Below, one piece after another: positions 41,574-64,000 of a stretch of 64,000 nucleotides of DNA (positions within the stretch are counted from its first letter, which is position 1; each line of letters starts with the position of its first letter). A program made the translations under genes and the position numbers. The DNA comes from Clostridia bacterium (lineage in GTDB: Bacteria; Bacillota; Clostridia; TANB77; CAG-508): NCBI GenBank assembly GCA_017511265.1, contig JAFWKV010000017.1, positions 7,312 to 71,311 on the forward strand, read 5' to 3'. The notes beneath the pieces were generated by a model. It had not been told where the DNA came from, did no database searches, and worked only from the letters and a program-made list of their open reading frames with translations.

Positions 41574-41601
41574 TGATGTTAAATATTAGGGGGGAAAATT
41601 T

Positions 41602-44046: not shown

Positions 44047-44050
44047 ATGA

Positions 44051-44083
44051 AGTTGTCAATGGGGACGGTTCTAATTGACAACT
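44051..44083. repeat. 33-bp palindromic element agttgtcaatggggacggttctaattgacaact between G2 and G3
   Basis: One mismatch relative to 23248-23280. Confidence 0.55.
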
Positions 44084-44101
44084 CATATGAAGGGATATAA
44101 A

Positions 44102-47317: not shown

Positions 47318-47336
47318 ATAATTATTGGAGAAGAAT

Positions 47337-49511: not shown

Positions 49512-49528
49512 AGGATAGAAGGAGAAAA

Positions 49529-51715
49529 ATGATAAAAGTAAAAAAGATACTATCTATACTTATGATAATTTCTATATTCATTTCTTTTGTATTACCAATT
49601 AATATAGCTAATGCAACATATACAATTAAACAATTGAGAAATATGTACCCTAGTAACATGCAATGGAATGATAAATACAAAGATGGATCATCTGAATGTG
49701 CTGGATTTGCATATTTAATTTATGATAGTTATTATGGAATAGGACCTAAAGAATATGGTAATAAAATAACAGATGTAGAACAAGCACAGCCTGGGGATAT
49801 TGTAAGATACAATGGCCATTCTGTATTTATTTTAACAAGAAATGGCGAGTCAACAACAGTAGTAGAATGTAACTATGATCGTCAAAATCATGTTAGATGG
49901 GATCAACCTAAAAATATGAGCGAATATAGAAATAGTTTTGAATATATTTATAAAGCACCATATATTTTAGAAACACCAGCGCCAGTAGTAGGAGTCCCTA
50001 CAAATGTGACTGTAGATACATCTAAATGGGTGCAAGCCAGTTGGAGTAAACCAAGTAACTGTTATGGATACTTATTGCAAGTTTATAATCAGGAGGGAAC
50101 TAAAGTCAAAGAAATAAAAATAAATAAAGCAGATACCACAGAACAAGCCATAGCAGGGTTAGAAACAGGTAATTATACACTTAGAGTATATGCTAAGGGA
50201 TTAGCTGGAGACTATTCTTCAGAATACGGAAGTGCAAAATTTTCATGCAAAAAGGAAGCAACTACATGTACTTTAAAAACAAAAAGTAATGTAATTGAAG
50301 TAGGACAAACCTACGAATATGAAGTAGTATTTCCAGAAGGGACTACAGCATATACAACACTTTTTATAGATTCGGAAGGAGATAAAAGTGTTTTAGAGAT
50401 TGAAAACCAAATGACAGTTAGAGGATTAAAAGAAGGAAATACAAAAGTATTTTTTATGATGAGAAGTAGTAATACAACTAGAACAGAGTCTTTTCAAATA
50501 AGTGTAATGAATCCATTAAGATTTAAAGATAACGAAGCAAAAACACTGAAAATAGGAGATAAATATCAATTAGAATTAAAATCAAAATCAGAAATTGCAA
50601 ATTCTGTTAAGTGGAACAGTTCGAATACAAGTGTAGCAACGGTTGACGAGCATGGTAATATAACAGCCTTAAAGGCAGGGAAAACGACAATAACTGCAAG
50701 TCAGAGTATGTGGACTACTGACCATAATGCATCTGGAACAACCCAAGATAAATGTACCATAACAGTAATAGACCCTAATATATATGCGACCAGTATAAGT
50801 TTAAACAAAACAGAAATGACATTAGAGAATATTGGAGATACAGATATTTTAAAAGCAACTATTTTACCAGAGAATACTACAAACAAAACAGTAACTTGGA
50901 CATCAAGTAATACAAATGTAGCAACAGTAGATGAAAACGGTAAAGTAAAAGTAAAAGGAGAAGGTAAGACGAAAATTACTGCAAAAACTTCAAATGGAAA
51001 GAGCACATATTGCATGGTTACTGTTCCAAAGCAAATTAAATGTAGTCTAAATTATACAGATTATACTTTTTCAAATTTGAACGAAACGATTCAAATACAA
51101 GCAAAATTAACAGATGGGTATAGCTCAACATTTAGTTACAAATCCACAAGGGACAGCATTTTAAAAGTTGATAAAAATGGAAAAGTAACTCCTGTAAAGG
51201 GTGGATTTGCAGATATTGTTGTAACAGACAATGTTTATGGAAAAAAGGCAACACTAAGTTGCTATGTACAAGTACCAGTAGTACTAAGTGATGGAAGTAA
51301 AGCGTATGTAGGAGATTTAAACAAAGATGGTTACTTTAATGCAACTGATGCTGCAATTATTTTAGATGGCTATAAAAATGGAGCTACATCAGATGATGTT
51401 TTGTTAGGAGACATAAATGGTGATGGATTTTTAAATGCTTCTGATAGTGCAATGTTACTAGATATATATAAGATGGGTCTTTTTTCGCCGGGAAAATATG
51501 ATAAAATAACAGAAAAAGTTGTAAAAGGTGACATTAATGGCAACGAAATAGTAGAACTAACAGACTATTCAATGATTTTAAAACATGTAAAGGGAATTAA
51601 ATTACTTGAAGGAGAACAAAAAGAAAGAGCAGATGTAAATGGCAATGGCACAATAGAACTAACAGATTATTCAATGGTACTAAAACATGTAAAAGGAATT
51701 AAATTATTGAATTAA
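49529..51715 (+). CDS. G5. Secreted papain-like (CHAP/NlpC-P60-type) peptidase + FN3-like + Big_2 + internal dockerin + C-terminal dockerin.
   Basis: SSECAGFAYLIY...GDIVRYNGHSVFIL...VVECNYD (Cys/His). Internal GDLNKDGYFNATD...GDINGDGFLNASD. C-terminal dockerin. Confidence 0.7.
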   Translation: MIKVKKILSILMIISIFISFVLPINIANATYTIKQLRNMYPSNMQWNDKYKDGSSECAGFAYLIYDSYYGIGPKEYGNKITDVEQAQPGDIVRYNGHSVFILTRNGESTTVVECNYDRQNHVRWDQPKNMSEYRNSFEYIYKAPYILETPAPVVGVPTNVTVDTSKWVQASWSKPSNCYGYLLQVYNQEGTKVKEIKINKADTTEQAIAGLETGNYTLRVYAKGLAGDYSSEYGSAKFSCKKEATTCTLKTKSNVIEVGQTYEYEVVFPEGTTAYTTLFIDSEGDKSVLEIENQMTVRGLKEGNTKVFFMMRSSNTTRTESFQISVMNPLRFKDNEAKTLKIGDKYQLELKSKSEIANSVKWNSSNTSVATVDEHGNITALKAGKTTITASQSMWTTDHNASGTTQDKCTITVIDPNIYATSISLNKTEMTLENIGDTDILKATILPENTTNKTVTWTSSNTNVATVDENGKVKVKGEGKTKITAKTSNGKSTYCMVTVPKQIKCSLNYTDYTFSNLNETIQIQAKLTDGYSSTFSYKSTRDSILKVDKNGKVTPVKGGFADIVVTDNVYGKKATLSCYVQVPVVLSDGSKAYVGDLNKDGYFNATDAAIILDGYKNGATSDDVLLGDINGDGFLNASDSAMLLDIYKMGLFSPGKYDKITEKVVKGDINGNEIVELTDYSMILKHVKGIKLLEGEQKERADVNGNGTIELTDYSMVLKHVKGIKLLN
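51518..51712 (+). repeat. Dockerin-coding DNA repeat (G5 3' end)
   Basis: Same repeat family. Confidence 0.7.
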
Positions 51716-51718
51716 ATA

Positions 51719-51758
51719 AAGAACAGACAATTAATTTAATCTAATTGTCTGTTCTTTA
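51719..51758 (+). terminator. Hairpin after G5
   Basis: aagaacagacaattaa...ttaattgtctgttctt. Confidence 0.45.
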
Positions 51759-51842
51759 TATGAAAAATTTTAGTATATAGATTGTAATTAAAAAAAGTTT
51801 ATGATAAAATTTGACCATAAAATAAAAGGAGGAAAATTTGTA

Positions 51843-54599
51843 ATGAAAAAATTTATTTCATTTATAATCATAGCAATATTATTGATACAAATGTATTTAC
51901 CAGTTTTATCATTTGCTACAAATGACAAAGTAGCATTAGACAATCACATAATAAAAGCTCTAAATGAAGGTAATTATGACAAAGATGAAGATGGAGAATT
52001 TACAATAGAGGAATTGTCAAAAGTATATTGGCTATATATAGACTGTGACGATGAATTTGTTGATTTAACAGGAATTGAAAACATGACCAATCTTTCAACA
52101 ATTGGATTTAATAGTGCAACATCTGATATGGACTTTACAGTATTAAGCCAATTACCATTAGACACATTATTTTTATCAGGATTTTTAAATGATATATCAT
52201 TTTTACAAAATCTTAATAGCTTGTCAGAGCTTTCAATATCATTTTACAATGAAGATGTACCATTAGACATACTTTCAACACTAACAACATTACAGAGTTT
52301 AAGAATAAGTTGCAATGGCGACATAGACATAGATAAATTAAACAACTTAACAGAATTAAAATATCTTACAATACAAGTTAGAGATGGAGTGGAAGTAACA
52401 CCAGAACTTATAGAAAATATAAATAGCTTAAAAGTTAAGAATTTTGCTTTAGAGGGAAAAGTTATTTACAATGTAGGAAATCTTGTATCAAATAAGCAAG
52501 CAGAAATCCCATTTGACAATATTCCATTAATAAAAGAAATGCAAAATCCAGGTAGTAAATTATACTATGAAGATTTTACATACAGCAAAAAAGATGATTT
52601 AATTACAGTAGATAATGCAAATAAAAAATTTCTTTTAAACCTAAAAAATGATGATACTAGAAGTGCAACAATTGAATTTGATAATGATATTACACTTGAA
52701 ATACAATGGAGTACTGCTGAAGATGATGAAGAACCAGAATTAAGCAACAAAATTAAAAATGCCTTACAAAAAGTAGGTGCAGACAAAGATAATAATGGTA
52801 AATATACAATAAGTGAATTAAAAAATGTACATTCTTTGGATTTAAACTTCTCATACAATGACAAATTTGACTTAACAGGAATTGAAAAGATAACAAATTT
52901 AGAGGGACTAACTATTACTGCAACATGTCCAGAAGTCGATTTATCACTATTAAAAGAGCTTCCAAATTTAACATATTTAAGTTTAAATGGAAATTTTAAT
53001 AGCATGGATTCTTTGGAGGGAGTAACAAATTTAGTTTCTTTAAGAATAAGTACATATAATAAAGATTTTTACTTTAATTTTGGGATAATAAACAGAATGA
53101 CAAATCTAGAAGCACTAGATATATACGGAATAAATGAAAATAATTTAAATAACATTAACAAATTAACAAATTTAAATAAATTAAAACGCCTAACTTTAAA
53201 CTTTGGAACAGAACCAAATGAATTAAAATTACCTAATTTAACAAATTTAGAAGAATTAAATTTGTCTTATATTAAAACAGATAATTTAAAAGATTTAGAA
53301 AAATTAACAAAATTAAGAAAATTATATATTCAACCAGTATTAAATAAAGATAATAGTGATGTTGACACAGAAGCTATAAAAAAATTAACAAATCTTGAAC
53401 AGCTAAAAATTACTTTAACAGATGATCCAAGTTGGGTTAATAGCTTATCAAAACTGAAACAAGTAGTTCTTGTAGCAAACACTACAGAAGATAACTATGA
53501 AAACCCACAAAAGATCCAACAAATGGTAAATGGAATTAATACTATTAAGGCAAATGTAAAATTAATAGGTCAATTTAACTTTAATATCGGGAAACTTACA
53601 GTTGGTGAAGAAAGAGATATAAATATAGGTGACAATATTTTAGTGAGAGAATTTAAAGACCCAAATAGCAAATTATATAGCCCTAATATCAATATAAATG
53701 TAGGTCATAACAATTTTATAAATGAATGGAATTATAATGAGAAAACTAAAATTGCACATTTAAAAGTTACTGAATTTGGTAATGATTATGCTTATGCTAG
53801 TGCATCAGAATATGAGGAAGATGGAATGTCGGTTAGCATAAATTTTAAATGGAAAGGCATCATAGATGATGACAAAGAAACAGAAATACCTATTAATGAT
53901 GAAAACTTAAAAAAAGCATTATTAGAAAAATATGATATAGATGGAAATAAAAAAATCACAAAACACGATTTATTAAATATTGACGAATTAGACCTAGACA
54001 ATAAAGGAATAGAAGATATTACAATTTTAGCATCTATGCCAAATCTTGAAAGAATTATTCTTCCAAATAATAAAATAAAAAATATTAAGGTAATTGAAGA
54101 ACTATCAAACAGCAGAAAAATACAATATATAAATTTAAAAAATAACGAAATTGAAGATATACAGCAAATAAAAGATGCAAATTTTGAAATTATTAATTTA
54201 AGTGAAAATTATATTGACTTTTCTGAAAATTCAGCAAATAGAAAAATAATAGTAGATTTTGGAATTGAAAGATGGGGAAATGAATATGATTTTTATTCAC
54301 AATATATGCCACTAAATCAAACAAGAGAAGAATTTATAAATGAAAATATAGATAATTATTTTAAAACCTATGCAGCAAATCAAAAAACGAAAACAACATA
54401 TAAAAAAGGCGACGTAAATGGAAACGGAATAGTAGAACTAACAGACTATTCAATGATTTTAAAACATGTAAAAGGAATAAAATTACTTGAAGGAGAGCAA
54501 AAAGAAAGAGCAGATGTAAATGGCAATGGCACAATAGAACTAACAGACTACTCAATGGTACTAAAGCATGTAAAAGGAATTAAACTATTAGATGAATAA
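51843..54599 (+). CDS. G6. Secreted leucine-rich-repeat (internalin-like) protein with C-terminal dockerin.
   Basis: Many LxxLxxLxLxxN repeats (LTNLEELNLSYIKTDNLKDLEKLTKLRKLYIQ) and a C-terminal dockerin pair. Confidence 0.7.
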   Translation: MKKFISFIIIAILLIQMYLPVLSFATNDKVALDNHIIKALNEGNYDKDEDGEFTIEELSKVYWLYIDCDDEFVDLTGIENMTNLSTIGFNSATSDMDFTVLSQLPLDTLFLSGFLNDISFLQNLNSLSELSISFYNEDVPLDILSTLTTLQSLRISCNGDIDIDKLNNLTELKYLTIQVRDGVEVTPELIENINSLKVKNFALEGKVIYNVGNLVSNKQAEIPFDNIPLIKEMQNPGSKLYYEDFTYSKKDDLITVDNANKKFLLNLKNDDTRSATIEFDNDITLEIQWSTAEDDEEPELSNKIKNALQKVGADKDNNGKYTISELKNVHSLDLNFSYNDKFDLTGIEKITNLEGLTITATCPEVDLSLLKELPNLTYLSLNGNFNSMDSLEGVTNLVSLRISTYNKDFYFNFGIINRMTNLEALDIYGINENNLNNINKLTNLNKLKRLTLNFGTEPNELKLPNLTNLEELNLSYIKTDNLKDLEKLTKLRKLYIQPVLNKDNSDVDTEAIKKLTNLEQLKITLTDDPSWVNSLSKLKQVVLVANTTEDNYENPQKIQQMVNGINTIKANVKLIGQFNFNIGKLTVGEERDINIGDNILVREFKDPNSKLYSPNININVGHNNFINEWNYNEKTKIAHLKVTEFGNDYAYASASEYEEDGMSVSINFKWKGIIDDDKETEIPINDENLKKALLEKYDIDGNKKITKHDLLNIDELDLDNKGIEDITILASMPNLERIILPNNKIKNIKVIEELSNSRKIQYINLKNNEIEDIQQIKDANFEIINLSENYIDFSENSANRKIIVDFGIERWGNEYDFYSQYMPLNQTREEFINENIDNYFKTYAANQKTKTTYKKGDVNGNGIVELTDYSMILKHVKGIKLLEGEQKERADVNGNGTIELTDYSMVLKHVKGIKLLDE
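54402..54596 (+). repeat. Dockerin-coding DNA repeat (G6 3' end)
   Basis: Same repeat family. Confidence 0.7.
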
Positions 54600-54632
54600 A
54601 TTAATACTCATTAATAAATAGAGGGAAAATAA

Positions 54633-56315
54633 ATGAAAAATAAAAATAGTATTTTAATAAAATTTATATTTACTTTTGTATTAATAGCAACAATAACTCA
54701 AACAAACTTTATCTATGCAACTGCTTTAGAAGATGAAGAAGTATATGAAAGTTTACTTACAACAAATGAGCAAGAAGAGACAGACACAGGAAACCTAACT
54801 TATGCCTCTGGAGTTACAGATGAAATGTGCAAGCCAGAATATTGGGCAAGCAAAATAAAAGATGCAAGTAAGGTATTAATGACAAAATCAGAAATATCAA
54901 AGCTAAACCAAGATATTATAGACGGAGCTGGAACAAATGTATTTGATTTAACTAAAATTAACGAAACAAAAACTCCATCTGAAAGAGCGCAAATATTAGC
55001 AAACAGTGAAGACATTCCAATAAGAAATCTCTATATAGATGGTACATTAATAGATAATAATACATATTTTACAAAACTAAAAAATGCAATGATAGAAACT
55101 GGGTTTGATGGTGATGAAACAGTTCAAAAGTATGCAGTAGCTGTAAAAAGAGCAGATGTAAGAGTATGGCCAACAAATGATGTAATAGGCTATAGTGAAA
55201 CAGATCCAGATGACGAAATTGAAAATTCAATATTAAATGTAAATGAACCATTTGTAATAAGAGGAAAATGTGAAGTAGATGGCAAAACATTTTATTGGGG
55301 AAATTCAAATGTTTGCCCAGGATGGGTAGATGCAGAAAATTTAGCAATATGTGAAAGCAAAGAAGAATGGATAGATGCATGGCAAGTAGATGTATCAGCA
55401 AAAGACTTTCTTGTTGTAACACAAGATAAAATTACGCTAGAGCCATCTCTTTCAGTGCCAGAAACATCTGAAATAAAATTGATGATAGGAACAACTTTAA
55501 AATTAGTTTCAAAAAGTGATTTGCCTAAAAACATAGGTGAAAGAGGAACTTGGAATAATTATGTTGTATATTTACCAACAAGAGATGAAGATGGAAACTA
55601 TGTTAAACAATATGCATTAATATCACAGCACTATGATGTAAGTATTGGATTTTTACCAATGACACAAGAAAACATATTAAAAGTTGCATTTTCATGTTTA
55701 GGAAACAGATATGGCTGGGGTGGAATGTTAGGTGCAATGGATTGCTCATTATATAGTAGAAGTATTTATGAATGCTTTGGCTTAGAACTACCTAGAAATA
55801 CTACTTGGCAGATGAAGGTACCAGGAAAAGTTACAGATGTTTCAGAGAAGAATGATGAAGAAAAAGAAGCATTTTTAGAAAAACAAGCAGTAGGAGCAAT
55901 TCTCTTCTTCCCAGGACATGCAATGGTCTATACTGGCAATGAAAATAACACAAGCTATACAATAAGCGCAACAGGATCACTTTCTGATAGTATTGGTGAG
56001 CTAAATGTACAAAGTATGTATTCAGTAATTTTAAATCCATTAACAACCAGAAGAAGAAATGGAAGAACATGGCTAAATAATTTAACTTATGTATTGAGCT
56101 TTGGTGAAAACAATGAAGAGCTAATAGGTGACGTAAATGGAAACGGAATAGTAGAACTAACAGACTATTCAATGATATTAAAACATGTAAAAGGAATAAA
56201 ATTACTTGAAGGAGAACAATTAGAAAGAGCTGATGTAAACCAAAATGGAAACATAGATTTAACAGATTATTCAATGGTATTAAAACATGTAAAGGGAATT
56301 AAATTATTGAATTAA
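54633..56315 (+). CDS. G7. Secreted SH3b + NlpC/P60 (YkfC-like gamma-D-Glu-diamino acid endopeptidase type) with C-terminal dockerin.
   Basis: NRYGWGGMLGAMDCSLYSRSIY...PGHAMVY (Cys-His NlpC/P60). Dockerin at the C-terminus. Confidence 0.75.
   Translation: MKNKNSILIKFIFTFVLIATITQTNFIYATALEDEEVYESLLTTNEQEETDTGNLTYASGVTDEMCKPEYWASKIKDASKVLMTKSEISKLNQDIIDGAGTNVFDLTKINETKTPSERAQILANSEDIPIRNLYIDGTLIDNNTYFTKLKNAMIETGFDGDETVQKYAVAVKRADVRVWPTNDVIGYSETDPDDEIENSILNVNEPFVIRGKCEVDGKTFYWGNSNVCPGWVDAENLAICESKEEWIDAWQVDVSAKDFLVVTQDKITLEPSLSVPETSEIKLMIGTTLKLVSKSDLPKNIGERGTWNNYVVYLPTRDEDGNYVKQYALISQHYDVSIGFLPMTQENILKVAFSCLGNRYGWGGMLGAMDCSLYSRSIYECFGLELPRNTTWQMKVPGKVTDVSEKNDEEKEAFLEKQAVGAILFFPGHAMVYTGNENNTSYTISATGSLSDSIGELNVQSMYSVILNPLTTRRRNGRTWLNNLTYVLSFGENNEELIGDVNGNGIVELTDYSMILKHVKGIKLLEGEQLERADVNQNGNIDLTDYSMVLKHVKGIKLLN
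56118..56312 (+). repeat. Dockerin-coding DNA repeat (G7 3' end)
   Basis: Same repeat family. Confidence 0.7.
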
Positions 56316-56332
56316 TAAAAGGGAGAAAACTA

Positions 56333-59300
56333 ATGAAGAAATTTATTTCAGTAATCGTTTTAGCTATTTTTCTAGCAAATTTAAACTTACCAATTGTATC
56401 ATTTGCTGTGGAAGAAACAGAACAAAGCACAGAAAAAAATGAGCAACAACAAGAGGCTGTTCAAGAAGAACAAAAACAGCAAGAAGAAAATAATATAATA
56501 GAAGTAGAAAGTGAGACAAATGAGCAAAATGAGATGCAAGCTAAGCAGGAAAAGGAAGAACAAGACGAGCAAGTAAAAGAAGAAATAAACAAAAGTGAAG
56601 AGACAAAAGGAACAGAAAATAAAGAAAATCAAGAAGAACAACAAGAACCAGAACGTAATTTAGATTCAGAAGACGAAATAGTAGAATTAGACGAAAAAGT
56701 AAAAAATGCTATTTCAACATATTATGATATAGATGATAATGATGATGGAGAATATTCTAAAAAAGAATTAGCAAATCCAAACTTAACTTCTATAAATATA
56801 GATTGCAATCAAGACACTGTAGATTTATCAGGAATTCAATACATGACATATTTAACTGGTATTGATATGTACAATATAAATGGAAGTATTGATTATACAT
56901 ATTTAGTAGAAACAGAAAACTTAAGAAGAATTTCATTGAATGGTAACGTAAAAAATATCAGTAAAATTGCTGAGATAAGCAATTTAGAAACACTTAGTAT
57001 AAATTTATATAATTACGAAGATGATTGTATAGAAGAATTATATAGTGATATTAGTAAAATGACAAATATAAACGAACTTGATTTGTTAAATTGTGATTGT
57101 AATAATTTAAAAGCACTAGAAAATTTAGATAACATAAAGAGGTTGTGGCTAGATCAAAAGTATGGCACAACTTTAGATATTGAAACTTTGTCAAAAATGA
57201 AAGCACTAGAATATTTAACAATACAATACAATGGTGAAAACATTGCATGGTTGGAAAATTTAAGTAATCTTAAAGATCTTAGGCTTCTAGGTTATAATGA
57301 CAGAGTTGAATTTACAGAAGATTTTTTTGAAGATATAAAAAAATTATCAATAGAAAGTGTTCATACTGATTCTCGCTCCATATTGAATTTTGGAAAAATA
57401 GAAATAGGACAAACCAAAGAATTAAAATTTGAAGATTTTCCAATATTGAAAGAGATGTGTGATGAAAATAGTATTTTTCATGAATCAGATTGGAATTTAA
57501 TTGTTTCAGAAAATCAAGAAGAAGGAACTAATACAGATTGTATTCATATAGATAATGAAAACCGCAAAATTTCTATAACACCAACAGAGGAAAGTCGAAA
57601 AGAAATTTATATAGATAAGAACAAATTTGCATGGGGACTAGGAAATCATTTTATTATAACTTGGGAAGAACCAGAGGATAATGAAATAGTAGAAATAAGT
57701 AGTGAATCTATAAAAAATGCATTAGAGAACAAATACATAGATAAGAATGGAGACGGAAAATATACAAAAGGTGAATTAGCAGATATAAACTTACAATCAA
57801 TTGCTATATTTATAAATGAAGACCAAATTGACTTATCACCATTAGAATATATGAAAAATTTGAACTATGTAGATATTAACCTCAATTATTACAACAACAG
57901 TAAAATAGATTTATCAGTATTAAAAAAATTAAATAAATTGGAATGGCTGAGTGTATTTAATTTAAAAGATGTAACATCTTTAAGTGTACTAACTAATATA
58001 AAAAAACTAAGCATAGAAACAACTAGCGAAAATTTTGAAGAAAAATTAAAAATAATAAGCAGACTAAGTAATCTTGAGTATTTATACATATATGATATAA
58101 ACACAGATGTTGATATAGATGAATTAACATCACTAAATAATCTAAAACAATTATCTTTAGATAGTTCAGGTAGTAATATTAAGATAAATTTAGATAATAT
58201 AGAAAAATTAAACAACTTGACTGAACTAAGTTTAAGAAATTTTAATTATGAGAATTTTAACAGCATAGAAAAACTTTCAAAATTAAAAAGCCTAACCCTA
58301 TCTACAAGATTTGATGAGAAATTAGATATTGATACAATATCTAAACTGAACAATTTAGAACAATTAAGTATAGAAGAATTTGTAGACGACGTAAATTGGC
58401 TTTCTGACTTAACAAATTTAAAATCTTTAACATTATATATAAAAAATAATCAAAAAGGTTTAGATGAAAAGTTTTTTAACGTAATAGATAGTTTGAATTT
58501 GGAAAATCTTAACATACAGGGGGATTATTCAATAAATCTTGGAGAATTAGAACCTGGTGTAATGACGGAATTTGACTTTGCTGATATACCACTATTAAAA
58601 AAAGCAATGGATCAAGAAAGTACATTTTATACTGAAAATTTAAGATTAGATGTTAACGAATACCAAGATAATAGAGTTGATAAAAACTGTATTCAAATAG
58701 ACAATGAAAATCATAAAATATATATAACAGCTCCAGAAGACCCAAAAGCAAAAAAACAAATTACTATTAGTCAAAATACGGGACAATTTTATAATATTAA
58801 ATTTACATGGTCTAACCCAGGTGATGATGAAATAATTGAAATAGACGATAAAATTGCTGAAGCTATAAAACAAAATAATTCTAATACTGATGAAAATGGA
58901 GATGGAAAATTTAGCAAAGGAGAGCTTGCTAATATAGAAAATTTATATATTAATTGTAATTCTAACAAAATTGACTTATCAGCCCTTGAATATATGATTA
59001 ATCTTGAATATCTTTCTATTTATAGTATGTCAGAAGGAACTGACCTATCACCGCTAATAAAATTGAAAGAACTAAAAAATCTTACTATATATGGCAATTT
59101 TAAAGACTTTAATCAAATTACAGAATTAACTAATCTAGAAACACTTAATATATATGTATACAATGGGTTAAATACGCTTGATGGATTAAATAAACTTAAT
59201 CACTTAAATAATCTTACTTTACAAGGATTTGATTGTAAAGATTTAAGTGGAATAGAAAATATACCAAATTTAAAACAGTTAAGCATAAGAATTGGAAATG

Positions 59301-61651
59301 CCAATGACATAGTAGATGTAAATAGTATTTCGAAAATAGAAAATTTAGAAACACTAACGGTAGAAAACTTTAATCCAAATAATATAGAATGGATACGAAA
59401 TATTGATGGCTTAAATGAATTAACTTTAACACACTATTCATATTCTGAAAGTAATGAAATGGAGTTAGACAGCCAATTTTTTGATACATTAAAAACGTTT
59501 AATATTCAAAAAATAAAACTAAATGGAAGCTATATTGTAAATTTAGGAGAACTAGAAAATGGTGTAGAAAGAACATTTAATTTTGCAGATATACCAATAT
59601 TAAATGCCTGTACAGATAAAAACAGTAAAATATATAATGTAGAGTATGAAAAGTTTTATATTAATAAAGATGGCAAAAATCAACTAACAATAAATGATAA
59701 TAAATCTTTTACACTAACGCCAACTGATAGTAATGAAAAAACAAAAGAGATATATAATTATTCTGTTAATGTAAAACTAAAGTGGTCAAATCCTGGAGAT
59801 AATGACATAGTACCTTTAAGTGAACCAATAAAAAGATCGATTGGCACATATTATGACAAAAATGGAGATGGAGAATTTACAAAATTAGAATTAGAATCTC
59901 AGAATCTTACAAATTTAAGGATTAGCTTTAGAGACAATGAAGAATGTGATATAACAGGAATAGAACACTTGAAAAATTTAACATACCTATCTATCAATTC
60001 TAATAAAAACACAGATTTTTCAGAACTTAAAAAATTGGATAAATTAGAAGAGATATCAATAAGTGGAGATTTCAATGACATTTCAACATTAAAAGACGTA
60101 ACACAGTTAAAAATAGTTAACTTAAGCCAATACAATGATAATATAATAAATTTAAGCATACTTAAGAATTTGACTAATTTGGAAAGCTTAAGAGTAAACT
60201 CAAATGTTACTAATATTACTGAATTGAAAGATTTAGCTAAATTGAAAAAACTTGAGATTTCATATAATTATGACAGCAATAAGGTTAAATTAAGTGAAAT
60301 AACACAATTAATTAATATAGAAAATTTAAGACTTTCAAATATAGATGAAAAAGACTTAACAGGACTAGAAAAAATGACAAATGTTTCAACATTATACATA
60401 ACACTTAAGAACGAAATAATTGATAAATTAGATACAAATACATTGGTAAAAATGAATTCCATAAAAGAGCTTAGTATAAACGCTATGAATGATATAAGCT
60501 GGATAGAAAACATTCCTACATTAGAAAAACTAACTTTAAGTGGATATTATAATTTTGAGATTACACAAGATTTAATAAATACGATTAATAATAGCCAAAT
60601 AGATATTATACTAACAGGGTCATTTTATACTAATTTAGGAAGTATTTATTTAGGAAATACTTTAGAGTATGAATTAAACAATGTTTTATTACTAAAAGAA
60701 TTAACAGATAAAAACAGTAAATTATATGACGAAAGATTTAACATAGAGTATAGTAAAACAGAAGGCAGAATATCAGATATAGAAGTAACTCCAACAGAAG
60801 GAAAAATAAAAATAAAGGCAAGAGAATTTGGTACAGATAGTAAAAGGTTCAGTACTTATTATAGTTCAGAAAATAAATTTACAGGACAAATCTATATAAA
60901 ATGGCAAAACATTATGCCAGGAGATACTACAAAAGAAATAGAGTTCAAAGATGAAAACCTAAGACAAGCTTTACTTGAAAATTATGACTGTGATGATGAC
61001 AAAAGAATCACAGAACAAGACATGATTAATATAGAAAGCTTAAATTTATATAATAAAGGAATAAAAGATATTTCAGGTTTAGAAAAGGCAATAAATGTTA
61101 GGTATGATATAAACTTATCAAATAATAAAATTAAAGATGCCACAATTGCAGCTCAAATGCTAAATCTAAATGATGAAGTATACATATATTTGGATAATAA
61201 CGAAATTGAAAATGTTACACATATAAAAGATGCTAATTTTGATAGAATTAATTTAAATGGAAATTATATTGATTTTTCAGAAAATTCTGAAAATAAAAAA
61301 ATAGTAGTAGATAAATTAACAGTACTATATTCAAAAGTTTATGATGAATTTACTGAAGAACTACAAGATTATTTTGGTAGCAAAGAAGAATATATAAATG
61401 AAAGGATATCAGAATATTTTGAATATTCTGCAGGAAATCAAAAAACAAAACCATATCTAAAAGGTGATGTAAATGGCAATGGAGCTGTTGATTTAACAGA
61501 CTATTCAATGATATTAAAACATGTAAAAGGTATTAAATTACTTGGAGGAGAACAAAAAGAAAGAGCAGATGTGAACGGTAACGGAACAATAGAACTTACA
61601 GATTATTCAATGGTATTAAAACATGTAAAGGGAATAAAACTACTATTTTAA
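56333..61651 (+). CDS. G8. Giant (1772 aa) secreted LRR protein with an acidic E/Q-rich N-terminal region and C-terminal dockerin.
   Basis: Signal peptide. EEQ-rich low-complexity stretch. Four similar LRR super-repeats, each ending in a WSNPGD-like segment. Dockerin pair. Confidence 0.7.
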   Translation: MKKFISVIVLAIFLANLNLPIVSFAVEETEQSTEKNEQQQEAVQEEQKQQEENNIIEVESETNEQNEMQAKQEKEEQDEQVKEEINKSEETKGTENKENQEEQQEPERNLDSEDEIVELDEKVKNAISTYYDIDDNDDGEYSKKELANPNLTSINIDCNQDTVDLSGIQYMTYLTGIDMYNINGSIDYTYLVETENLRRISLNGNVKNISKIAEISNLETLSINLYNYEDDCIEELYSDISKMTNINELDLLNCDCNNLKALENLDNIKRLWLDQKYGTTLDIETLSKMKALEYLTIQYNGENIAWLENLSNLKDLRLLGYNDRVEFTEDFFEDIKKLSIESVHTDSRSILNFGKIEIGQTKELKFEDFPILKEMCDENSIFHESDWNLIVSENQEEGTNTDCIHIDNENRKISITPTEESRKEIYIDKNKFAWGLGNHFIITWEEPEDNEIVEISSESIKNALENKYIDKNGDGKYTKGELADINLQSIAIFINEDQIDLSPLEYMKNLNYVDINLNYYNNSKIDLSVLKKLNKLEWLSVFNLKDVTSLSVLTNIKKLSIETTSENFEEKLKIISRLSNLEYLYIYDINTDVDIDELTSLNNLKQLSLDSSGSNIKINLDNIEKLNNLTELSLRNFNYENFNSIEKLSKLKSLTLSTRFDEKLDIDTISKLNNLEQLSIEEFVDDVNWLSDLTNLKSLTLYIKNNQKGLDEKFFNVIDSLNLENLNIQGDYSINLGELEPGVMTEFDFADIPLLKKAMDQESTFYTENLRLDVNEYQDNRVDKNCIQIDNENHKIYITAPEDPKAKKQITISQNTGQFYNIKFTWSNPGDDEIIEIDDKIAEAIKQNNSNTDENGDGKFSKGELANIENLYINCNSNKIDLSALEYMINLEYLSIYSMSEGTDLSPLIKLKELKNLTIYGNFKDFNQITELTNLETLNIYVYNGLNTLDGLNKLNHLNNLTLQGFDCKDLSGIENIPNLKQLSIRIGNANDIVDVNSISKIENLETLTVENFNPNNIEWIRNIDGLNELTLTHYSYSESNEMELDSQFFDTLKTFNIQKIKLNGSYIVNLGELENGVERTFNFADIPILNACTDKNSKIYNVEYEKFYINKDGKNQLTINDNKSFTLTPTDSNEKTKEIYNYSVNVKLKWSNPGDNDIVPLSEPIKRSIGTYYDKNGDGEFTKLELESQNLTNLRISFRDNEECDITGIEHLKNLTYLSINSNKNTDFSELKKLDKLEEISISGDFNDISTLKDVTQLKIVNLSQYNDNIINLSILKNLTNLESLRVNSNVTNITELKDLAKLKKLEISYNYDSNKVKLSEITQLINIENLRLSNIDEKDLTGLEKMTNVSTLYITLKNEIIDKLDTNTLVKMNSIKELSINAMNDISWIENIPTLEKLTLSGYYNFEITQDLINTINNSQIDIILTGSFYTNLGSIYLGNTLEYELNNVLLLKELTDKNSKLYDERFNIEYSKTEGRISDIEVTPTEGKIKIKAREFGTDSKRFSTYYSSENKFTGQIYIKWQNIMPGDTTKEIEFKDENLRQALLENYDCDDDKRITEQDMINIESLNLYNKGIKDISGLEKAINVRYDINLSNNKIKDATIAAQMLNLNDEVYIYLDNNEIENVTHIKDANFDRINLNGNYIDFSENSENKKIVVDKLTVLYSKVYDEFTEELQDYFGSKEEYINERISEYFEYSAGNQKTKPYLKGDVNGNGAVDLTDYSMILKHVKGIKLLGGEQKERADVNGNGTIELTDYSMVLKHVKGIKLLF
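61454..61648 (+). repeat. Dockerin-coding DNA repeat (G8 3' end)
   Basis: Same repeat family. Confidence 0.7.
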
Positions 61652-61657
61652 AAGAAC

Positions 61658-61872
61658 ACAAAAATCAACCAAAATGAATTGGTTACTATTCAGACTAAGC
61701 TTTTATAGAGTAGCCTAAATGTTGATATATAAATATATTGAAAGAACAAGACCAGTAGGAAGACCCCAGCTATGTTTTGTTCAAAATATATTTATATATC
61801 AACATTTAGGCGGAAATAATTATAATCTAGTCTGAATAGTAACATGAATTATCCTTTTTGGTTGATTTTTGT
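61658..61872. repeat. Nested palindromic MITE-like element after G8, related to R1. Its right arm also matches 117-180.
   Basis: Outer arms caaaaatcaaccaaaa.../...ttttggttgatttttg. Inner arms cctaaatgttgatatata.../...tatatatcaacatttagg. The core ggaagaccccagctatgttttg resembles R1. The segment catttaggcgga.ataattataatctagtctgaa.agtaaca recurs at 137-178. Confidence 0.55.
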
Positions 61873-61928: not shown

Positions 61929-64000
61929 ATGACAAATAAAAGACTTTTAATCATCACACTACTAATAACAATACTACTAGAAATAATTTATTCAACAATT
62001 AATCCAATAGTACTTGCAACAGAAGCAAATACAATAAAACTTAATTTTACAAAATACAAATTTGAAAACTTAAATTCAAACATCCAACTTCAAGCATCAT
62101 TTACAGGTGAAACAGAAAAAATCACATGGAAAAGTGACAATGAAAATGCTGTAGCAGTTGACCCAAATGGTAAAGTTACACCAAAATCAGCAGGATTTTC
62201 ATACATAAGAGCAAAAGGAACAACATGTTCAGCTGAATGCATGATATATGTTGCAACACCAGTACAATTAAGTGATGGTAGCTATGGATATGTAGGAGAC
62301 TTAGACAGAAATGGAATATTAGATGCAAATGATGCATCACTAATAAGTGAAATATATAGAACAGAACAAGGAAATAAAGAAATTGCAGACATTGATGGTA
62401 ATGGTGTAATAGATGTAAATGATTCAAGCTTGCTAATGGATATATTCCGTTTTTATGAATTCACAGTTCCTGCTACTAAACCAAACGAACAAAATAATGA
62501 TGACGAAAACGAGCAAGGAAATCAAGGCGAAAAGCCAACGAATCCTGCAGAAGAACAGCAACAAGAACAAACATATACAAACGACTTAGAAGAAACAGAC
62601 CTAATTCGTATATATAATTCAAAAACTGGATTTGACTTTAAAATAAATAAAGATACAACAATTAATGAAGTTATAGCAAAATACGGAGAGCCAAAAATAA
62701 AAACAGAAAGTGCCTTTGGCGGATCTGCATATACATTTTATACAGACGACAAATATAGCAATTATCTATACCTTGAAACAACAGTAAATGATGCAACAAT
62801 AATATCTTATGGAACTGTATGGAATGAGTACTTTACATATAATTCAGGATATGGTGAAAAAGAAGACGTTACTGATAATTTACTATTACATGGCTATTTT
62901 ATAAATAATGGCATTGATTTAATAATTAGAGGAGGAATGTATTATAATACACAAAAATTAATAGAAAATAATTATGACAAAACAGTAGGAACATATAAAA
63001 CAAACTATAAAAACAACCCGTCATTATACTTAAAATCAATAGCAAAACATGCAACAACAATGTATAATGCAATATGTACAATAAATGGATGTACATGTAA
63101 CTTACAATTTAATGAAGACATATTTTATACAAATGAGCAACTAAAGCAAAATGACTCATCAATAAAAATTTATGCAGAAAATAATGGAAAAATGCCATAT
63201 TTAAAAGGCATAGGCGCTAGAGATAATGTGCAAGTTACAAGTAGATATTATGTATTATCTCCTATATATTTTGCAGATATGTTCTTTTCTGAGCCATTAA
63301 ACAAAATTGATATGCCAGAAAGATATAAATACGCTGTTTTTGACTATAATCAAGACAACCAAGTAATTGAAGCATATGTTATAGAAGAAGACATGTTTAA
63401 AATTTGGAATAAAGTAGCATTAACAACAGAAGAAACAACAAAATTAAATGAAGCAAGAAACTATTATAATACAGCAATGGATTTATTTAACAACAATACA
63501 GGAAGCATCTATAAAAGTGAGCCAATTGATAATCCGGCGGAAAGTTTATATGCAGGTGAACTAAAAGAAACGATGAAACAAGCTGCAACAGCATACTATA
63601 ATGCTATTAGAGCAGGACAAGGATTATCTAGTGTAGTACAAAATGAAACAGGAAGAAAACAAGCACAAGCAATGTCAATACTACAAAGCTATAGATGGCA
63701 CCAATTAGGACTTGGAATTACGCATACTCCTGAACAACCAGCAGGTGTATCTGATAACTTTTTTAATACTGCTACAGGATATGGACAAGTAAGTCTTGCA
63801 GAAAATATTGCAATGTCAAATAATTTAGAACCATCAATATATTCTATTCAAAAATATATTAAACAGTTTATGGATGATAGTTCAGAAACGCCTTTTAGAC
63901 TAGGACATAGAACATCATTATTAATGCCATCAAATGCTAATATAGGTTATGGAATTGCAAAATCTATAGGCGTTATGGAGATAGGGCATAATACAAAATT
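61929..64000 (+). CDS. G9 (partial, runs off the window). Secreted protein: Big_2 + internal dockerin + linker + N-domain + CAP-like domain, a permuted order relative to G1/G3.
   Basis: AGGAGGTG ribosome-binding site. Open frame from 61929 to the window end with no stop. Absent from the ORF track because it has no stop. Contains YVGDLDRNGILDANDASLISEIY...ADIDGNGVIDVNDSSLLMDIF and GHRTSLL. Confidence 0.7.
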   Translation, partial: MTNKRLLIITLLITILLEIIYSTINPIVLATEANTIKLNFTKYKFENLNSNIQLQASFTGETEKITWKSDNENAVAVDPNGKVTPKSAGFSYIRAKGTTCSAECMIYVATPVQLSDGSYGYVGDLDRNGILDANDASLISEIYRTEQGNKEIADIDGNGVIDVNDSSLLMDIFRFYEFTVPATKPNEQNNDDENEQGNQGEKPTNPAEEQQQEQTYTNDLEETDLIRIYNSKTGFDFKINKDTTINEVIAKYGEPKIKTESAFGGSAYTFYTDDKYSNYLYLETTVNDATIISYGTVWNEYFTYNSGYGEKEDVTDNLLLHGYFINNGIDLIIRGGMYYNTQKLIENNYDKTVGTYKTNYKNNPSLYLKSIAKHATTMYNAICTINGCTCNLQFNEDIFYTNEQLKQNDSSIKIYAENNGKMPYLKGIGARDNVQVTSRYYVLSPIYFADMFFSEPLNKIDMPERYKYAVFDYNQDNQVIEAYVIEEDMFKIWNKVALTTEETTKLNEARNYYNTAMDLFNNNTGSIYKSEPIDNPAESLYAGELKETMKQAATAYYNAIRAGQGLSSVVQNETGRKQAQAMSILQSYRWHQLGLGITHTPEQPAGVSDNFFNTATGYGQVSLAENIAMSNNLEPSIYSIQKYIKQFMDDSSETPFRLGHRTSLLMPSNANIGYGIAKSIGVMEIGHNTK

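What the first reader, a model, noticed from the sequence alone, without database searches (positions are those of the whole stretch)
51843..61651. Dockerin-tagged leucine-rich-repeat proteins, including a 1772-aa giant with four LRR super-repeats and an acidic N-terminus
G6 and G8 consist of internalin-like LRR arrays. G8 has four internally repeated blocks of about 350 aa. Each block has LRRs followed by a conserved segment ending ...KFTWSNPGDDEI. G8 also has an EEQ-rich low-complexity region after the signal peptide. Bacterial LRR proteins typically mediate protein-protein or host-cell adhesion. Coupling them to dockerins is unusual.
Basis: seen in the sequence. Interest (0 to 1): 0.6.

Follow-up and report, generated by a model that had tools for sequence, protein, structure and literature searches.

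The report
Dockerin-anchored internalin-like LRR surface proteins
Two large secreted proteins of an uncultured ruminant-gut Clostridia bacterium are strings of internalin-like leucine-rich-repeat binding domains ending in a dockerin tag. That tag most likely plugs them onto a cell-wall-anchored cohesin protein encoded at the end of the same gene cluster, a surface-display arrangement already known from Ruminococcus.

Summary
G6 (51843-54599, 918 aa) and G8 (56333-61651, 1772 aa) are secreted LRR proteins ending in Pfam Dockerin_1 domains. G8 has four super-repeats of 325-382 aa and G6 has two, 25-37% identical in BLASTP (E 1e-15 to 4e-53). Each super-repeat has a helical cap with a canonical EF-hand loop, about 8 LRRs of ~22 residues, and a ~115-aa beta domain. 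An AlphaFold model (pLDDT 90) matches Listeria internalins best.

"LRR plus dockerin is unusual" is wrong. R. flavefaciens has 28 LRR modules among 222 dockerin proteins. In R. bromii, the sortase-anchored single-cohesin Sca2 binds an LRR-protein dockerin.

G6 and G8 sit in a cluster of a class B sortase gene and nine genes with near-identical dockerins: LRR, NlpC/P60, CAP-like and Big_2 proteins, no CAZymes. Just beyond the window lies a protein with one cohesin, Big_2 domains and an SPKTG sorting signal. Four related loci share this layout. Across them, cohesin and dockerin divergence co-vary (r = 0.95) independently of the rest of the anchor.

Most likely this is a non-cellulosomal cohesin-dockerin display system with the LRR proteins as its binding arms. 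Their ligand is unknown. It is a new variant of a known kind, of moderate interest.

The parts
37472..38245 (+). Class B sortase gene at the head of the cluster.
   Evidence: NCBIfam TIGR03064 sortase_srtB scores 188.6 bits against a cut-off of 153.75. Pfam Sortase E=6e-16.
38351..51715 (+). Five other cargo genes with the same C-terminal dockerin. 38351-39778 plus 39786-41573 is a split copy of the 44075 gene. 41602-44046 has a weak CAP-like match. 44075-47317 carries Big_2 domains and an extra internal dockerin. 47325-49511 carries Big_2 domains. 49529-51715 carries Big_2 domains and an internal dockerin.
   Evidence: Pfam Dockerin_1 and Big_2 hits. The CAP match for 41602 is E=0.016. The dockerin-coding 218-nt repeat occurs 8 times at 81-88% identity. 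The dockerin peptides are near-identical.
51716..51759 (+). Terminator-like hairpin between the previous gene and G6. It suggests that G6, the NlpC/P60 gene and G8 form their own transcription unit.
   Evidence: An 18-bp perfect stem folds at -22.6 kcal/mol, z=-7.8, followed by a U-rich tail.
51843..54599 (+). G6, 918 aa. Signal peptide aa 1-25 (inferred by eye). Super-repeat 1: aa 29-304, nt 51927-52754. Super-repeat 2: aa 305-688, nt 52755-53906. Tail cap plus short LRR plus helical linker: aa 689-852, nt 53907-54398. Dockerin: aa 853-918, nt 54399-54596.
54633..56315 (+). NlpC/P60 peptidase-family protein with the same dockerin, lying between the two LRR genes.
   Evidence: Pfam NLPC_P60 E=1.7e-8 (34.9 bits, cut-off 23); Dockerin_1 E=2.3e-11.
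56333..56671 (+). G8 N-terminus. Signal peptide aa 1-25 (inferred by eye). E/Q-rich acidic low-complexity region aa 26-113.
   Evidence: 30 E and 16 Q in 88 residues. Similar acidic N-terminal regions occur in the relatives P0002, P0003, P0012 and P0013.
56672..60937 (+). G8's four super-repeats: aa 114-458, 459-840, 841-1165 and 1166-1535. Each has an EF-hand-loop cap, about 8-10 LRRs (8 strands in the block 3 model; counts for the other blocks are estimated from their lengths) and a ~115-aa beta domain.
   Evidence: Block alignment. Pairwise BLASTP E values from 5e-29 to 4e-53 within G8. The model of block 3 has pLDDT 90.2 and pTM 0.88, with 8 LRR strands 21-25 residues apart. Internalins are the top Foldseek hits. 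Canonical EF-hand loops start at aa 134, 470, 853 and 1175.
60938..61459 (+). G8 tail module: a fifth cap (loop DCDDDKRITEQD), a short internalin-type LRR, the conserved NYIDFSENS motif and a helical linker.
   Evidence: The alignment of tails from G6, G8 and four relatives shows 44-61% identity to G8. LRR_4 and EF-hand hits fall in this region.
61460..61651 (+). G8 C-terminal dockerin (aa 1710-1772) and stop codon. It has two near-identical Ca-loop-plus-helix segments, DVNGNGxxxLTDYSM(I/V)LKHVKGIKLL.
   Evidence: Pfam Dockerin_1 covers aa 1710-1765 and profile positions 1-56 of 57, E=9.2e-13. Peptide comparison.
61658..61872 (.). A 215-nt nested inverted repeat (long hairpin) between G8 and the next cargo gene. 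Its role is unknown; it could be a terminator or a MITE-like insertion.
   Evidence: Arms of 22, 16 and 27 nt are 91-100% complementary. The RNA fold is -90.8 kcal/mol, z=-13.8. It is single-copy in the window and absent from the related loci.
61930..64000 (+). Start of the ninth cargo gene (1205 aa in the full contig). It has an N-terminal Big_2-like domain plus an internal dockerin, a weak CAP match and a C-terminal dockerin. It runs off the window.
   Evidence: (CAP E=6e-4). The cohesin-bearing anchor follows it at L001 19297-22140, which would be about 65629-68472 in window coordinates and so lies outside the window.

Best explanation
G6 and G8 are secreted, multivalent, internalin-like LRR binding proteins. 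They are most likely held on the cell surface non-covalently. Their C-terminal dockerin would bind, in a Ca2+-dependent way, to the single cohesin of an anchor protein encoded at the 3' end of the same cluster.

The anchor has a signal peptide, a cohesin, three Big_2 domains, CxxC repeats, and an SPKTG motif followed by a transmembrane segment and a basic tail. It would be linked covalently to peptidoglycan by the class B sortase encoded at the 5' end of the cluster.

The two LRR proteins share this one docking site with seven other cargo proteins carrying the same dockerin: NlpC/P60, CAP-like and Big_2 proteins. With the dockerin at the C-terminus, the LRR super-repeats and G8's acidic N-terminal tip project outwards. 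They would serve as the ligand-recognition or adhesion arms of a non-cellulosomal cohesin-dockerin display system.

Shown: domain identities, cluster layout, conserved synteny, and cohesin-dockerin co-variation.
Inferred: actual cohesin-dockerin binding, sortase anchoring, Ca2+ binding by the caps, and adhesion. The ligand is unknown.
For: 1. Domains. LRR and Dockerin_1 score above Pfam cut-offs. The block profile matches internalins. The block 3 model (pLDDT 90) matches InlA, InlH and InlB with Foldseek E about 1e-10.

2. Anchor. Its isolated N-terminal domain hits Pfam Cohesin over profile positions 1-138 of 139, E=1.6e-8, 35.3 bits against a cut-off of 24.1. Four of five orthologous anchor domains also hit Cohesin. 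The C-terminus reads SSSPKTGDN, then a transmembrane segment, then RRKRNK. C. difficile SrtB cleaves SPKTG peptides, and its kinetic-assay peptide was d-SDSPKTGDN-e (PMC4155245). The cluster's sortase is class B.

3. Conserved synteny in four related metagenomic loci: dockerin cargo genes including an LRR-dockerin gene, then the anchor, then a DUF5640 gene, with a sortase nearby.

4. Co-variation.
- L001 against L007: the anchor's Big_2 region is 90% identical, but the cohesin is 35% and the dockerins about 40% identical.
- L001 against L008: Big_2 59%, cohesin 57%, dockerins 84%.
- Over six locus pairs, r(cohesin, dockerin)=0.95 and r(Big_2, dockerin)=-0.41.
- Within each locus the dockerins are 88-91% identical.

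5. Module swap. The G6 orthologue P0012 is 85% identical over the passenger but 42% in the dockerin. DNA homology ends about 35 nt into the dockerin-coding region. At least its upstream neighbour in that contig carries the new dockerin type.

6. Interchangeable anchors. Other members of the same super-repeat family end in three SLH domains, ChW repeats or a KPDTG sorting signal instead of a dockerin. The C-terminal module therefore acts as a surface-attachment device.

7. Experimental precedent. R. bromii Sca2, a single cohesin with a sortase signal, binds the dockerin of a '2x LRR' protein and that of a peptidase (PMC4611034). R. flavefaciens ScaE binds LRR-bearing dockerin proteins.
Against: - No binding experiment or complex model exists for this system.
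- The cohesin call rests on a modest Pfam score. The match was not listed when the whole anchor was scanned, although only 25 of 27 families were shown. The profile search against PDB gives a cohesin as top hit at only E=0.035. A DUF11 match overlaps the first 60 residues.
- The co-variation rests on four loci that are not phylogenetically independent.
- In R. flavefaciens, most dockerins from LRR proteins bound none of the tested cohesins.
- Only one contig of the genome is seen, so other cohesins or dockerin-tagged enzymes may exist elsewhere.
- Nothing identifies the LRR ligand. 'Adhesin' is inferred from the fold and from analogy to internalins.
Confidence: 0.7

Rival explanations
1. G6 and G8 are accessory components of a polysaccharide-degrading cellulosome or amylosome. 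Their dockerins would insert them into a multi-enzyme scaffoldin encoded elsewhere in the genome. The LRR domains would mediate assembly or substrate and fibre attachment rather than an independent adhesion function.
For: LRR-dockerin proteins are abundant in the cellulosomal R. flavefaciens and occur in the R. bromii amylosome. The source is a ruminant gut metagenome. Only one contig of the genome is visible.
Against: None of the cargo genes examined in the four related loci matched a glycoside hydrolase, carbohydrate esterase, lyase or CBM family. Cargo comprises LRR, NlpC/P60, CHAP, M23, RicinB, CAP-like and Big_2 proteins. The only cohesin found is a single one on a sortase-anchored protein. 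The co-variation ties the dockerins to that cohesin.
Confidence: 0.1
2. The LRR arrays recognise other microbial cells, and the cluster is a contact-dependent attack or epibiont-attachment kit. G6 and G8 would bind the target surface. The co-docked peptidoglycan hydrolases and CAP-domain proteins would then act on it.
For: The cargo sets pair LRR proteins with cell-wall hydrolase families. NlpC/P60 lies between G6 and G8. CHAP-RicinB and M23-RicinB dockerin proteins lie next to the LRR gene in L010. One family member fuses the LRR super-repeat directly to a CAP domain (P0042).
Against: NlpC/P60, CHAP and M23 enzymes are equally typical autolysins for the cell's own wall turnover and cell separation. 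There is no immunity gene, toxin domain or secretion apparatus in the cluster. There is no evidence about ligands.
Confidence: 0.12
3. The dockerins of G6 and G8 do not dock to the neighbouring cohesin. The proteins would then be released, soluble LRR factors, or bind an unidentified partner. The shared dockerin would be only a Ca2+-dependent folding or secretion module kept uniform by gene conversion.
For: Most LRR-protein dockerins of R. flavefaciens bound none of the tested cohesins. The cohesin assignment is of moderate strength.
Against: Cohesin and dockerin types change together between close relatives while the rest of the anchor stays 90% identical. Relatives replace the dockerin with bona fide wall anchors such as SLH, ChW or a sorting signal. 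LRR dockerins do bind Sca2 and ScaE in two studied species.
Confidence: 0.08

Closest known systems
Ruminococcus bromii Sca2 (single cohesin plus sortase signal) with its LRR-dockerin ligand CBL14720.1 (PMC4611034)
   Same: A cell-wall-anchored protein with one cohesin and a C-terminal sortase motif binds dockerins of non-enzymatic LRR proteins and peptidases. This is the same logic of non-covalent surface display.
   Different: In R. bromii the same cohesin also binds GH13 amylases, forming an amylosome. Here no CAZyme carries the dockerin in any of the four loci seen. The anchor here has Big_2 and CxxC-repeat modules and an SPKTG (SrtB-type) signal. The LRR passengers here are tandem cap-LRR-beta super-repeats.
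Ruminococcus flavefaciens FD-1 LRR-dockerin proteins and the ScaE anchor (PMC2930009, PMC5301203)
   Same: Architectures of signal peptide, LRR and dockerin are abundant: 28 LRR modules among 222 dockerin proteins. Some bind the sortase-anchored ScaE cohesin. Dockerin-tagged peptidases and transglutaminase-like proteins are encoded next to them.
   Different: The R. flavefaciens system is embedded in an elaborate cellulosome with many cohesins and six dockerin groups. Here there is one cohesin and one dockerin type per locus, arranged as a compact cluster. No sequence relationship of the passengers was tested.
Listeria monocytogenes internalins (InlA, InlB, InlH), i.e. the 'internalin domain' of cap, LRR and IR
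   Same: They share an N-terminal helical cap, roughly 22-residue LRRs forming a curved solenoid, and a following beta-sandwich domain. They are the best sequence-profile and structural matches.
   Different: Internalins have one internalin domain per protein; G8 has four plus a short fifth. The beta domain is not detectably homologous to the IR domain. Anchoring is by dockerin rather than LPXTG or GW modules. Scores are far below the NCBIfam internalin cut-offs.
Clostridioides difficile SrtB and its (S/P)PXTG substrates (PMC4155245)
   Same: Both involve a class B sortase and a substrate ending in SPKTGDN, a hydrophobic segment and a basic tail.
   Different: In C. difficile the adhesins and hydrolases are themselves the sortase substrates. 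Here only the cohesin anchor carries the sorting signal, and the adhesin-like and hydrolase proteins attach to it indirectly.
SLH-anchored members of the same LRR super-repeat family (for example P0015, P0031 and loci L012-L015)
   Same: They have the same cap-LRR-beta super-repeat and the same tail module.
   Different: Their C-terminus is three S-layer-homology domains, which bind the wall directly, instead of a dockerin. Some come from human-gut contigs.

Membership tests
Dockerin (Pfam PF00404 Dockerin_1) | A module of about 60-70 residues made of two tandem segments, each with a Ca2+-binding loop followed by a helix. | tested here: met
   G6 aa 855-910 and G8 aa 1710-1765 cover profile positions 1-56 of 57, with E=1.5e-13 and 9.2e-13. 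Both segments read DVNGNGxxxLTDYSM(I/V)LKHVKGIKLL.
Dockerin (Pfam PF00404 Dockerin_1) | Specific Ca2+-dependent binding to a cognate cohesin. | not testable with these tools
   The support is indirect. Cohesin and dockerin divergence co-vary across four loci, r=0.95. A dockerin module swap is seen in the G6 orthologue.
Leucine-rich repeat proteins | Tandem 20-30-residue LxxLxLxxN-type repeats forming a beta-strand/helix solenoid. | tested here: met
   Pfam LRR_14, LRR_4, LRR_EndoS and LRR_R13L1-DRL21 score above their cut-offs. The model has 8 parallel strands spaced 21-25 residues apart, pLDDT 90.
Listeria-type internalins (internalin domain) | An N-terminal helical cap contiguous with the LRR. 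| tested here: met
   The profile alignment to InlB covers chain residues ~25-207, which would include its cap. The model has helices at residues 4-13 and 27-31 before the first LRR strand.
Listeria-type internalins (internalin domain) | An Ig-like inter-repeat (IR) domain fused to the C-terminal end of the LRR. | tested here: inconclusive
   A beta domain of about 115 aa with one short helix sits at the equivalent position. It has no sequence match in PDB. Foldseek gives only weak Ig-like matches with E of 4e-3 or worse; InlJ is at rank 14 with E=0.036.
Listeria-type internalins (internalin domain) | Family-level sequence membership (NCBIfam internalin models) and LPXTG or GW anchoring. | tested here: not met
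   internalin_A scores 53 bits (G6) and 116 bits (G8) against a cut-off of 1600. The C-terminus is a dockerin, not LPXTG or GW. The proteins are internalin-like in fold but not internalin family members.
Cellulosome / amylosome | Dockerin-tagged carbohydrate-active enzymes assembled on a scaffoldin with several cohesins, usually with a CBM. | tested here: not met
   No GH, CE, PL or CBM family was found on any dockerin protein in the window or in loci L001, L007, L008 and L010. Only a single cohesin occurs on the anchor, and none occurs inside the window. The rest of the genome was not available.
ScaE / Sca2-type sortase-anchored cohesin proteins (applies to the neighbouring anchor) | Signal peptide, one cohesin, and a C-terminal sortase sorting signal. 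| tested here: met
   Cohesin PF00963 E=1.6e-8, 35.3 bits against a cut-off of 24.1, full-length match, with 4 of 5 orthologues matching. The C-terminus is SPKTG, a transmembrane segment and RRKRNK.
Class B sortase system | An SrtB-family enzyme plus a substrate with an (S/P)PXTG-type signal. | tested here: met
   TIGR03064 scores 188.6 bits against a cut-off of 153.75. The anchor ends in SPKTGDN, and its orthologues have SPKTG, NPKTG or NPRTG. G6 and G8 themselves have no sorting signal.
EF-hand Ca2+-binding loop (in the LRR caps) | A 12-residue loop of the form DxDxDGxIxxxE flanked by helices, which binds Ca2+. | tested here: inconclusive
   Eight loops fit a relaxed form of this loop pattern (D-x-[DN]-x-[DN]-[GKEN]-x-[IVLFY]-[STNQ]-x-x-[ED]), for example DKNGDGKYTKGE. 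Pfam EF-hand_1 scores 31.8 bits against a cut-off of 25.4 for G6, but no single stretch passes on its own. The model places helices on both sides. Ca2+ binding is not testable here.

The most novel reading that the evidence does not exclude
The cluster may be a cohesin-dockerin 'tool rack' unrelated to polysaccharide breakdown. One wall-anchored cohesin would be loaded interchangeably with LRR recognition arms, peptidoglycan hydrolases (NlpC/P60; CHAP and M23 with RicinB in relatives) and CAP-domain proteins. The cell would use it to grab and attack, or attach to, other microbes in the rumen. The cohesin-dockerin pair would diversify rapidly between close relatives so that each lineage loads only its own cargo.
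Probability: 0.13. Interest if true: 0.7.

Novelty: new variant of a known kind. Interest (0 to 1): 0.4.

Why it matters
Cohesin-dockerin systems are studied almost entirely as machines for degrading plant fibre or starch. This cluster is a compact, self-contained example. It has one sortase, one cohesin anchor and nine cargo genes. The cargo consists of binding proteins, wall hydrolases and CAP-like proteins, with no carbohydrate-active enzyme seen. This supports the view that dockerins are a general surface-display tag in gut Clostridia.

Related loci provide a natural experiment. Between close relatives the cohesin and all the dockerins switched type together. That pattern could guide specificity studies and the design of orthogonal cohesin-dockerin pairs.

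The tandem internalin-like modules with EF-hand caps form a rare family, with 51 representative clusters among 1.84 billion proteins. Their ligands are unknown and could bear on how uncultured rumen and gut Clostridia attach to host, feed or other microbes.

None of this overturns current understanding. The basic LRR-dockerin and anchor-cohesin arrangement already has experimental precedent.

Tried and rejected
1. The N-terminal domain of the 47325-49511 protein looked cohesin-like by eye. It has no Pfam hit even at E up to 10, no PDB hit, and hhalign against the anchor cohesins gives a probability of 0.5%. Rejected.

2. I tested whether the beta domain is an internalin IR domain. The profile search against PDB found nothing. 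Foldseek found only weak generic Ig-like matches. Left as inconclusive.

4. Search for the family in representative genomes. The block alignment A1 was too divergent to derive search patterns. The tail alignment A3 found only one weak, dockerin-only match, in a rumen Ruminococcus MAG.

5. Search for every contig carrying this exact dockerin type, to ask whether CAZymes carry it elsewhere. A degenerate 42-nt pattern found nothing in metagenome contigs. The question remains open.

6. Taxonomy. Homologues of the window's PNPase at 83-100% identity carry no name finer than 'Clostridia bacterium'. The lineage is unresolved. Germination protease and YtxC genes indicate a spore-forming Firmicute.

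7. An Rfam scan of the window found no known RNA family.

8. Recent duplication of the super-repeats is rejected. There is no DNA-level repeat inside G8 or G6 apart from the tail and dockerin regions, and the blocks are only 25-37% identical in BLASTP as proteins.

9. Horizontal-transfer island: G+C is uniform (0.25-0.32) across the window and the flanks hold housekeeping genes, so there is no compositional sign of one.


Full report
**1. What is at the coordinates**

The span 51843-61651 holds three + strand genes.
- G6 runs from 51843 to 54599 (918 aa). Its ATG follows an AAGGAGG ribosome-binding site and is the start used in the public gene call.
- A 560-aa protein at 54633-56315 has an NlpC/P60 domain and a dockerin.
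- G8 runs from 56333 to 61651 (1772 aa).

G8 is 100% identical to NCBI 'MAG: hypothetical protein IKF83_02470 [Clostridia bacterium]'. It lies on an ENA contig from a ruminant gut metagenome series, XIEF21-1_SAMN15830017. The window has uniformly low G+C (0.25-0.32). It carries housekeeping genes: PNPase, formate-tetrahydrofolate ligase, germination protease, YtxC, an AddA-like helicase and NrdD. This is therefore the chromosome of an uncultured, spore-forming Clostridia bacterium. Finer taxonomy could not be obtained.

**2. Checking the observation**

Pfam supports both the LRR and the dockerin assignments above curated cut-offs.
- G6: LRR_14 E=1.6e-15, LRR_4 E=1.3e-8, Dockerin_1 E=1.5e-13.
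- G8: LRR_14 E=2.1e-29 in four stretches, LRR_R13L1-DRL21 E=4e-13, LRR_EndoS E=8e-11, Dockerin_1 E=9.2e-13.

G8 divides into four blocks (aa 114-458, 459-840, 841-1165, 1166-1535). G6 divides into two (aa 29-304, 305-688). The blocks align end to end. All 15 pairs give BLASTP E values between 1.7e-15 and 4e-53. The C-terminal non-LRR parts alone still give 2e-5 to 7e-24. The repeat is therefore real and is not an artefact of LRR composition.

There is no DNA-level repeat between blocks, so the duplications are old. The E/Q-rich region after the G8 signal peptide is confirmed, with 30 E and 16 Q in 88 residues. Similar acidic N-terminal regions recur in relatives.

Both proteins also have an extra 'tail' module before the dockerin. 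It consists of a cap, a short 22-residue-type LRR, a conserved NYIDFSENS motif and a helical linker.

**3. Anatomy of a super-repeat**

Each block starts with a short strand and helix, then a loop that fits a relaxed form of the 12-residue EF-hand pattern, for example DKNGDGKYTKGE. There are eight such loops in G6 and G8 together.

AlphaFold2 on block 3, using a 16-sequence alignment of blocks from G6, G8 and five relatives, gave pLDDT 90.2 and pTM 0.88. The model shows a two-helix cap, eight parallel LRR strands spaced 21-25 residues apart, and a C-terminal beta domain with one short helix.

A profile of the blocks hits internalin A at E=1.4e-68 and internalin B at about 1e-20. The InlB match covers chain residues ~25-207, which would include its cap. 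The best Foldseek matches in the PDB are all internalins (InlA, InlH, InlB), with E about 1e-10 and TM 0.42-0.57 over 320-345 columns.

The beta domain on its own models well (pLDDT 86.8). It has no sequence match in the PDB and only weak, generic Ig-like structural matches: best E=4e-3, with InlJ at rank 14. Each block is therefore internalin-like in architecture (cap, LRR, beta domain). The proteins are nonetheless not members of the Listeria internalin families. NCBIfam internalin models score 53 and 116 bits against cut-offs of 1600. Homology of the beta domain to the internalin IR domain is unproven.

**4. How common is this module?**

An exhaustive profile search with the beta domain against 1.84 billion representative proteins found only 51 proteins at E of 1e-3 or better, 40 of them at 1e-10 or better. 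Many carry two to six copies. Reading their C-termini by regular expression, by eye, and by Pfam on ten representatives gives this split:
- about 24 end in a dockerin;
- 7 end in three SLH domains;
- 1 ends in ChW repeats;
- 1 ends in a KPDTG sorting signal with a membrane anchor;
- 1 ends in a CAP domain;
- about 13 are truncated by contig ends.

SLH-anchored relatives also turned up in human-gut contigs. One locus there has four consecutive SLH-terminated genes. The passenger is thus combined with several alternative cell-surface attachment modules. This argues that the dockerin does the same job here.

**5. The genomic context gives the mechanism**

Upstream of the finding lies a class B sortase gene at 37472-38245. 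It scores TIGR03064 188.6 bits against a cut-off of 153.75. All following genes are on the + strand and end in a nearly identical dockerin:
- a split CAP-like/Big_2 gene (38351-41573);
- 41602-44046;
- 44075-47317;
- 47325-49511;
- 49529-51715;
- G6;
- the NlpC/P60 gene;
- G8;
- a ninth gene that starts at about 61930 and runs off the window.

The dockerin-coding 218 nt are 81-88% identical across eight copies.

Fetching the contig beyond the window (L001) shows that the next gene after the ninth cargo gene encodes a 947-aa protein. It has a signal peptide, an N-terminal domain that hits Pfam Cohesin over the whole profile (E=1.6e-8, 35.3 bits against a cut-off of 24.1), three Big_2 domains and four CxxC (RYYR-CCHC) repeats. 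Its C-terminus reads SSSPKTGDN, then a hydrophobic segment, then RRKRNK.

C. difficile SrtB cleaves SPKTG peptides, and its kinetic-assay peptide was d-SDSPKTGDN-e (PMC4155245). No cohesin-like domain occurs inside the window. No CAZyme domain was found on any cargo protein.

**6. Comparative evidence for the pairing**

Orthologues of the anchor (57-75% identical) were located on contigs from other ruminant and gut metagenomes. The order is the same in all: dockerin cargo genes including an LRR-dockerin gene, then the anchor, then a DUF5640 gene. In L008 a sortase follows. In the relative P0002 a sortase directly precedes the LRR-dockerin gene. Cargo in L010 includes CHAP-RicinB and M23-RicinB dockerin proteins.

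Each locus has its own dockerin type, 88-91% identical within the locus. Between loci:
- L001 against L007: the anchors' Big_2 regions are 90% identical, yet the cohesins are 35% and the dockerins about 40% identical.
- L001 against L008: Big_2 59%, cohesin 57%, dockerins 84%.
- Over the six locus pairs, r(cohesin, dockerin)=0.95 and r(Big_2, dockerin)=-0.41.

The G6 orthologue P0012 is 85% identical over aa 291-850 but only 42% in the dockerin. Nucleotide homology (88%) stops about 35 nt into the dockerin-coding region. Its upstream neighbour in that contig carries the new dockerin type.

Cohesin and dockerins thus switch type together, as expected for a cognate receptor-tag pair. The limitation is that there are only four loci and they are not independent.

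**7. Comparison with what is known**

- R. flavefaciens FD-1 has 28 LRR modules among 222 dockerin proteins, often next to dockerin-tagged transglutaminase-like peptidases (PMC2930009).
- Some of these dockerins bind cohesins, including the sortase-anchored ScaE, although most LRR-derived dockerins bound none of those tested (PMC5301203).
- In R. bromii, the single-cohesin, sortase-signal protein Sca2 binds the dockerin of a '2x LRR' protein and that of a peptidase (PMC4611034).

The present system follows the same logic. It differs in four ways:
- no CAZyme is among the cargo in any of the four loci;
- it is arranged as a compact cluster of sortase, cargo and anchor genes;
- the anchor has an SrtB-type SPKTG signal and a Big_2/CxxC stalk;
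- the LRR passengers are tandem, complete internalin-like modules with EF-hand caps from a rare family.

**8. Function**

I commit to the following. G6 and G8 are exported by Sec; their signal peptides were read by eye. They fold with Ca2+ and dock through the C-terminal dockerin onto the wall-anchored cohesin. They project two to five LRR binding modules outward, with G8's acidic tip most distal. They act as the recognition or adhesion arms of this display system, competing for the same cohesin with the hydrolase and CAP-like cargo.

Confidence is about 0.7 for surface display through the cohesin. It is lower, about 0.5, for adhesion as the role. The ligand is unknown.

Rivals:
- a cellulosome or amylosome accessory role (0.1);
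- target recognition for interbacterial attack together with the co-docked peptidoglycan hydrolases (0.12, the most novel reading);
- dockerins that do not use this cohesin (0.08).

**9. Verdict**

This is a new variant of a known kind, namely sortase-anchored single-cohesin display of LRR-dockerin proteins. Interest is moderate. The main value lies in the clean, CAZyme-free cluster architecture and in the natural cohesin-dockerin type switch between close relatives.

Noticed in passing
window 61658-61872: A 215-nt nested inverted repeat lies immediately after the G8 stop codon and just before the promoter-like site (61872-61900) of the next gene. Its arms of 22, 16 and 27 nt are 91-100% complementary. 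It folds at -90.8 kcal/mol (z=-13.8). It is single-copy in the window and absent from the related loci. It could be an oversized terminator or a MITE-like insertion.
   Followed up: partly
window 51716-51759: A perfect 18-bp stem hairpin with a U-rich tail (-22.6 kcal/mol, z=-7.8) separates the 49529-51715 gene from G6. It suggests that G6, the NlpC/P60 gene and G8 are transcribed separately from the upstream cargo genes.
   Followed up: partly
window 38351-39778 and 39786-41573: Two adjacent ORFs together match the single 1080-aa gene at 44075-47317, with 85-86% nucleotide identity in 300-nt stretches. They represent a frameshifted or split paralogue, or an assembly error.
   Followed up: partly
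window 46664-46825 (gene 44075-47317, aa 864-917), 51314-51475 (gene 49529-51715, aa 596-649) and about 62299-62450 (gene from 61930): Three cargo proteins carry a second, internal dockerin-like pair of a different sequence type (for example DLNKDGYFNATDAAIIL...DINGDGFLNASDSAMLL) in addition to the common C-terminal dockerin. No matching second cohesin was found.
   Followed up: partly
window 47430-47990 (N-terminal domain of gene 47325-49511): A domain of about 180 aa looked cohesin-like by eye but has no Pfam, PDB or hhalign support. Its identity remains unknown.
   Followed up: yes
L001 22206-22604; also L007 13165-13560, L008 13021-13413, L010 13178-13573: A small DUF5640 gene (130-132 aa) directly follows the cohesin anchor in all four related loci. 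The linkage is conserved and the role is unknown.
   Followed up: no
window 49529-49950 (N-terminus of gene 49529-51715): The N-terminal ~130 aa has a Cys...His pattern (SSECAGFAYLIY...GHSVFI) reminiscent of CHAP or NlpC/P60-type amidases. Pfam gave no hit, so this is an impression from the sequence only.
   Followed up: no
L015 6774-16011 (human gut metagenome contig ORLM01000026): Four consecutive genes end in near-identical SLH modules, and one of them is a relative of the LRR super-repeat family. This parallels the dockerin cluster, with a shared anchor module on neighbouring surface-protein genes.
   Followed up: partly
P0042 (1672 aa): One family member fuses the cap-LRR-beta module to three copies of an unknown ~190-aa repeat and a C-terminal CAP domain (Pfam CAP E=5e-15). 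This links LRR and CAP modules, which in the window are separate neighbouring cargo genes.
   Followed up: no
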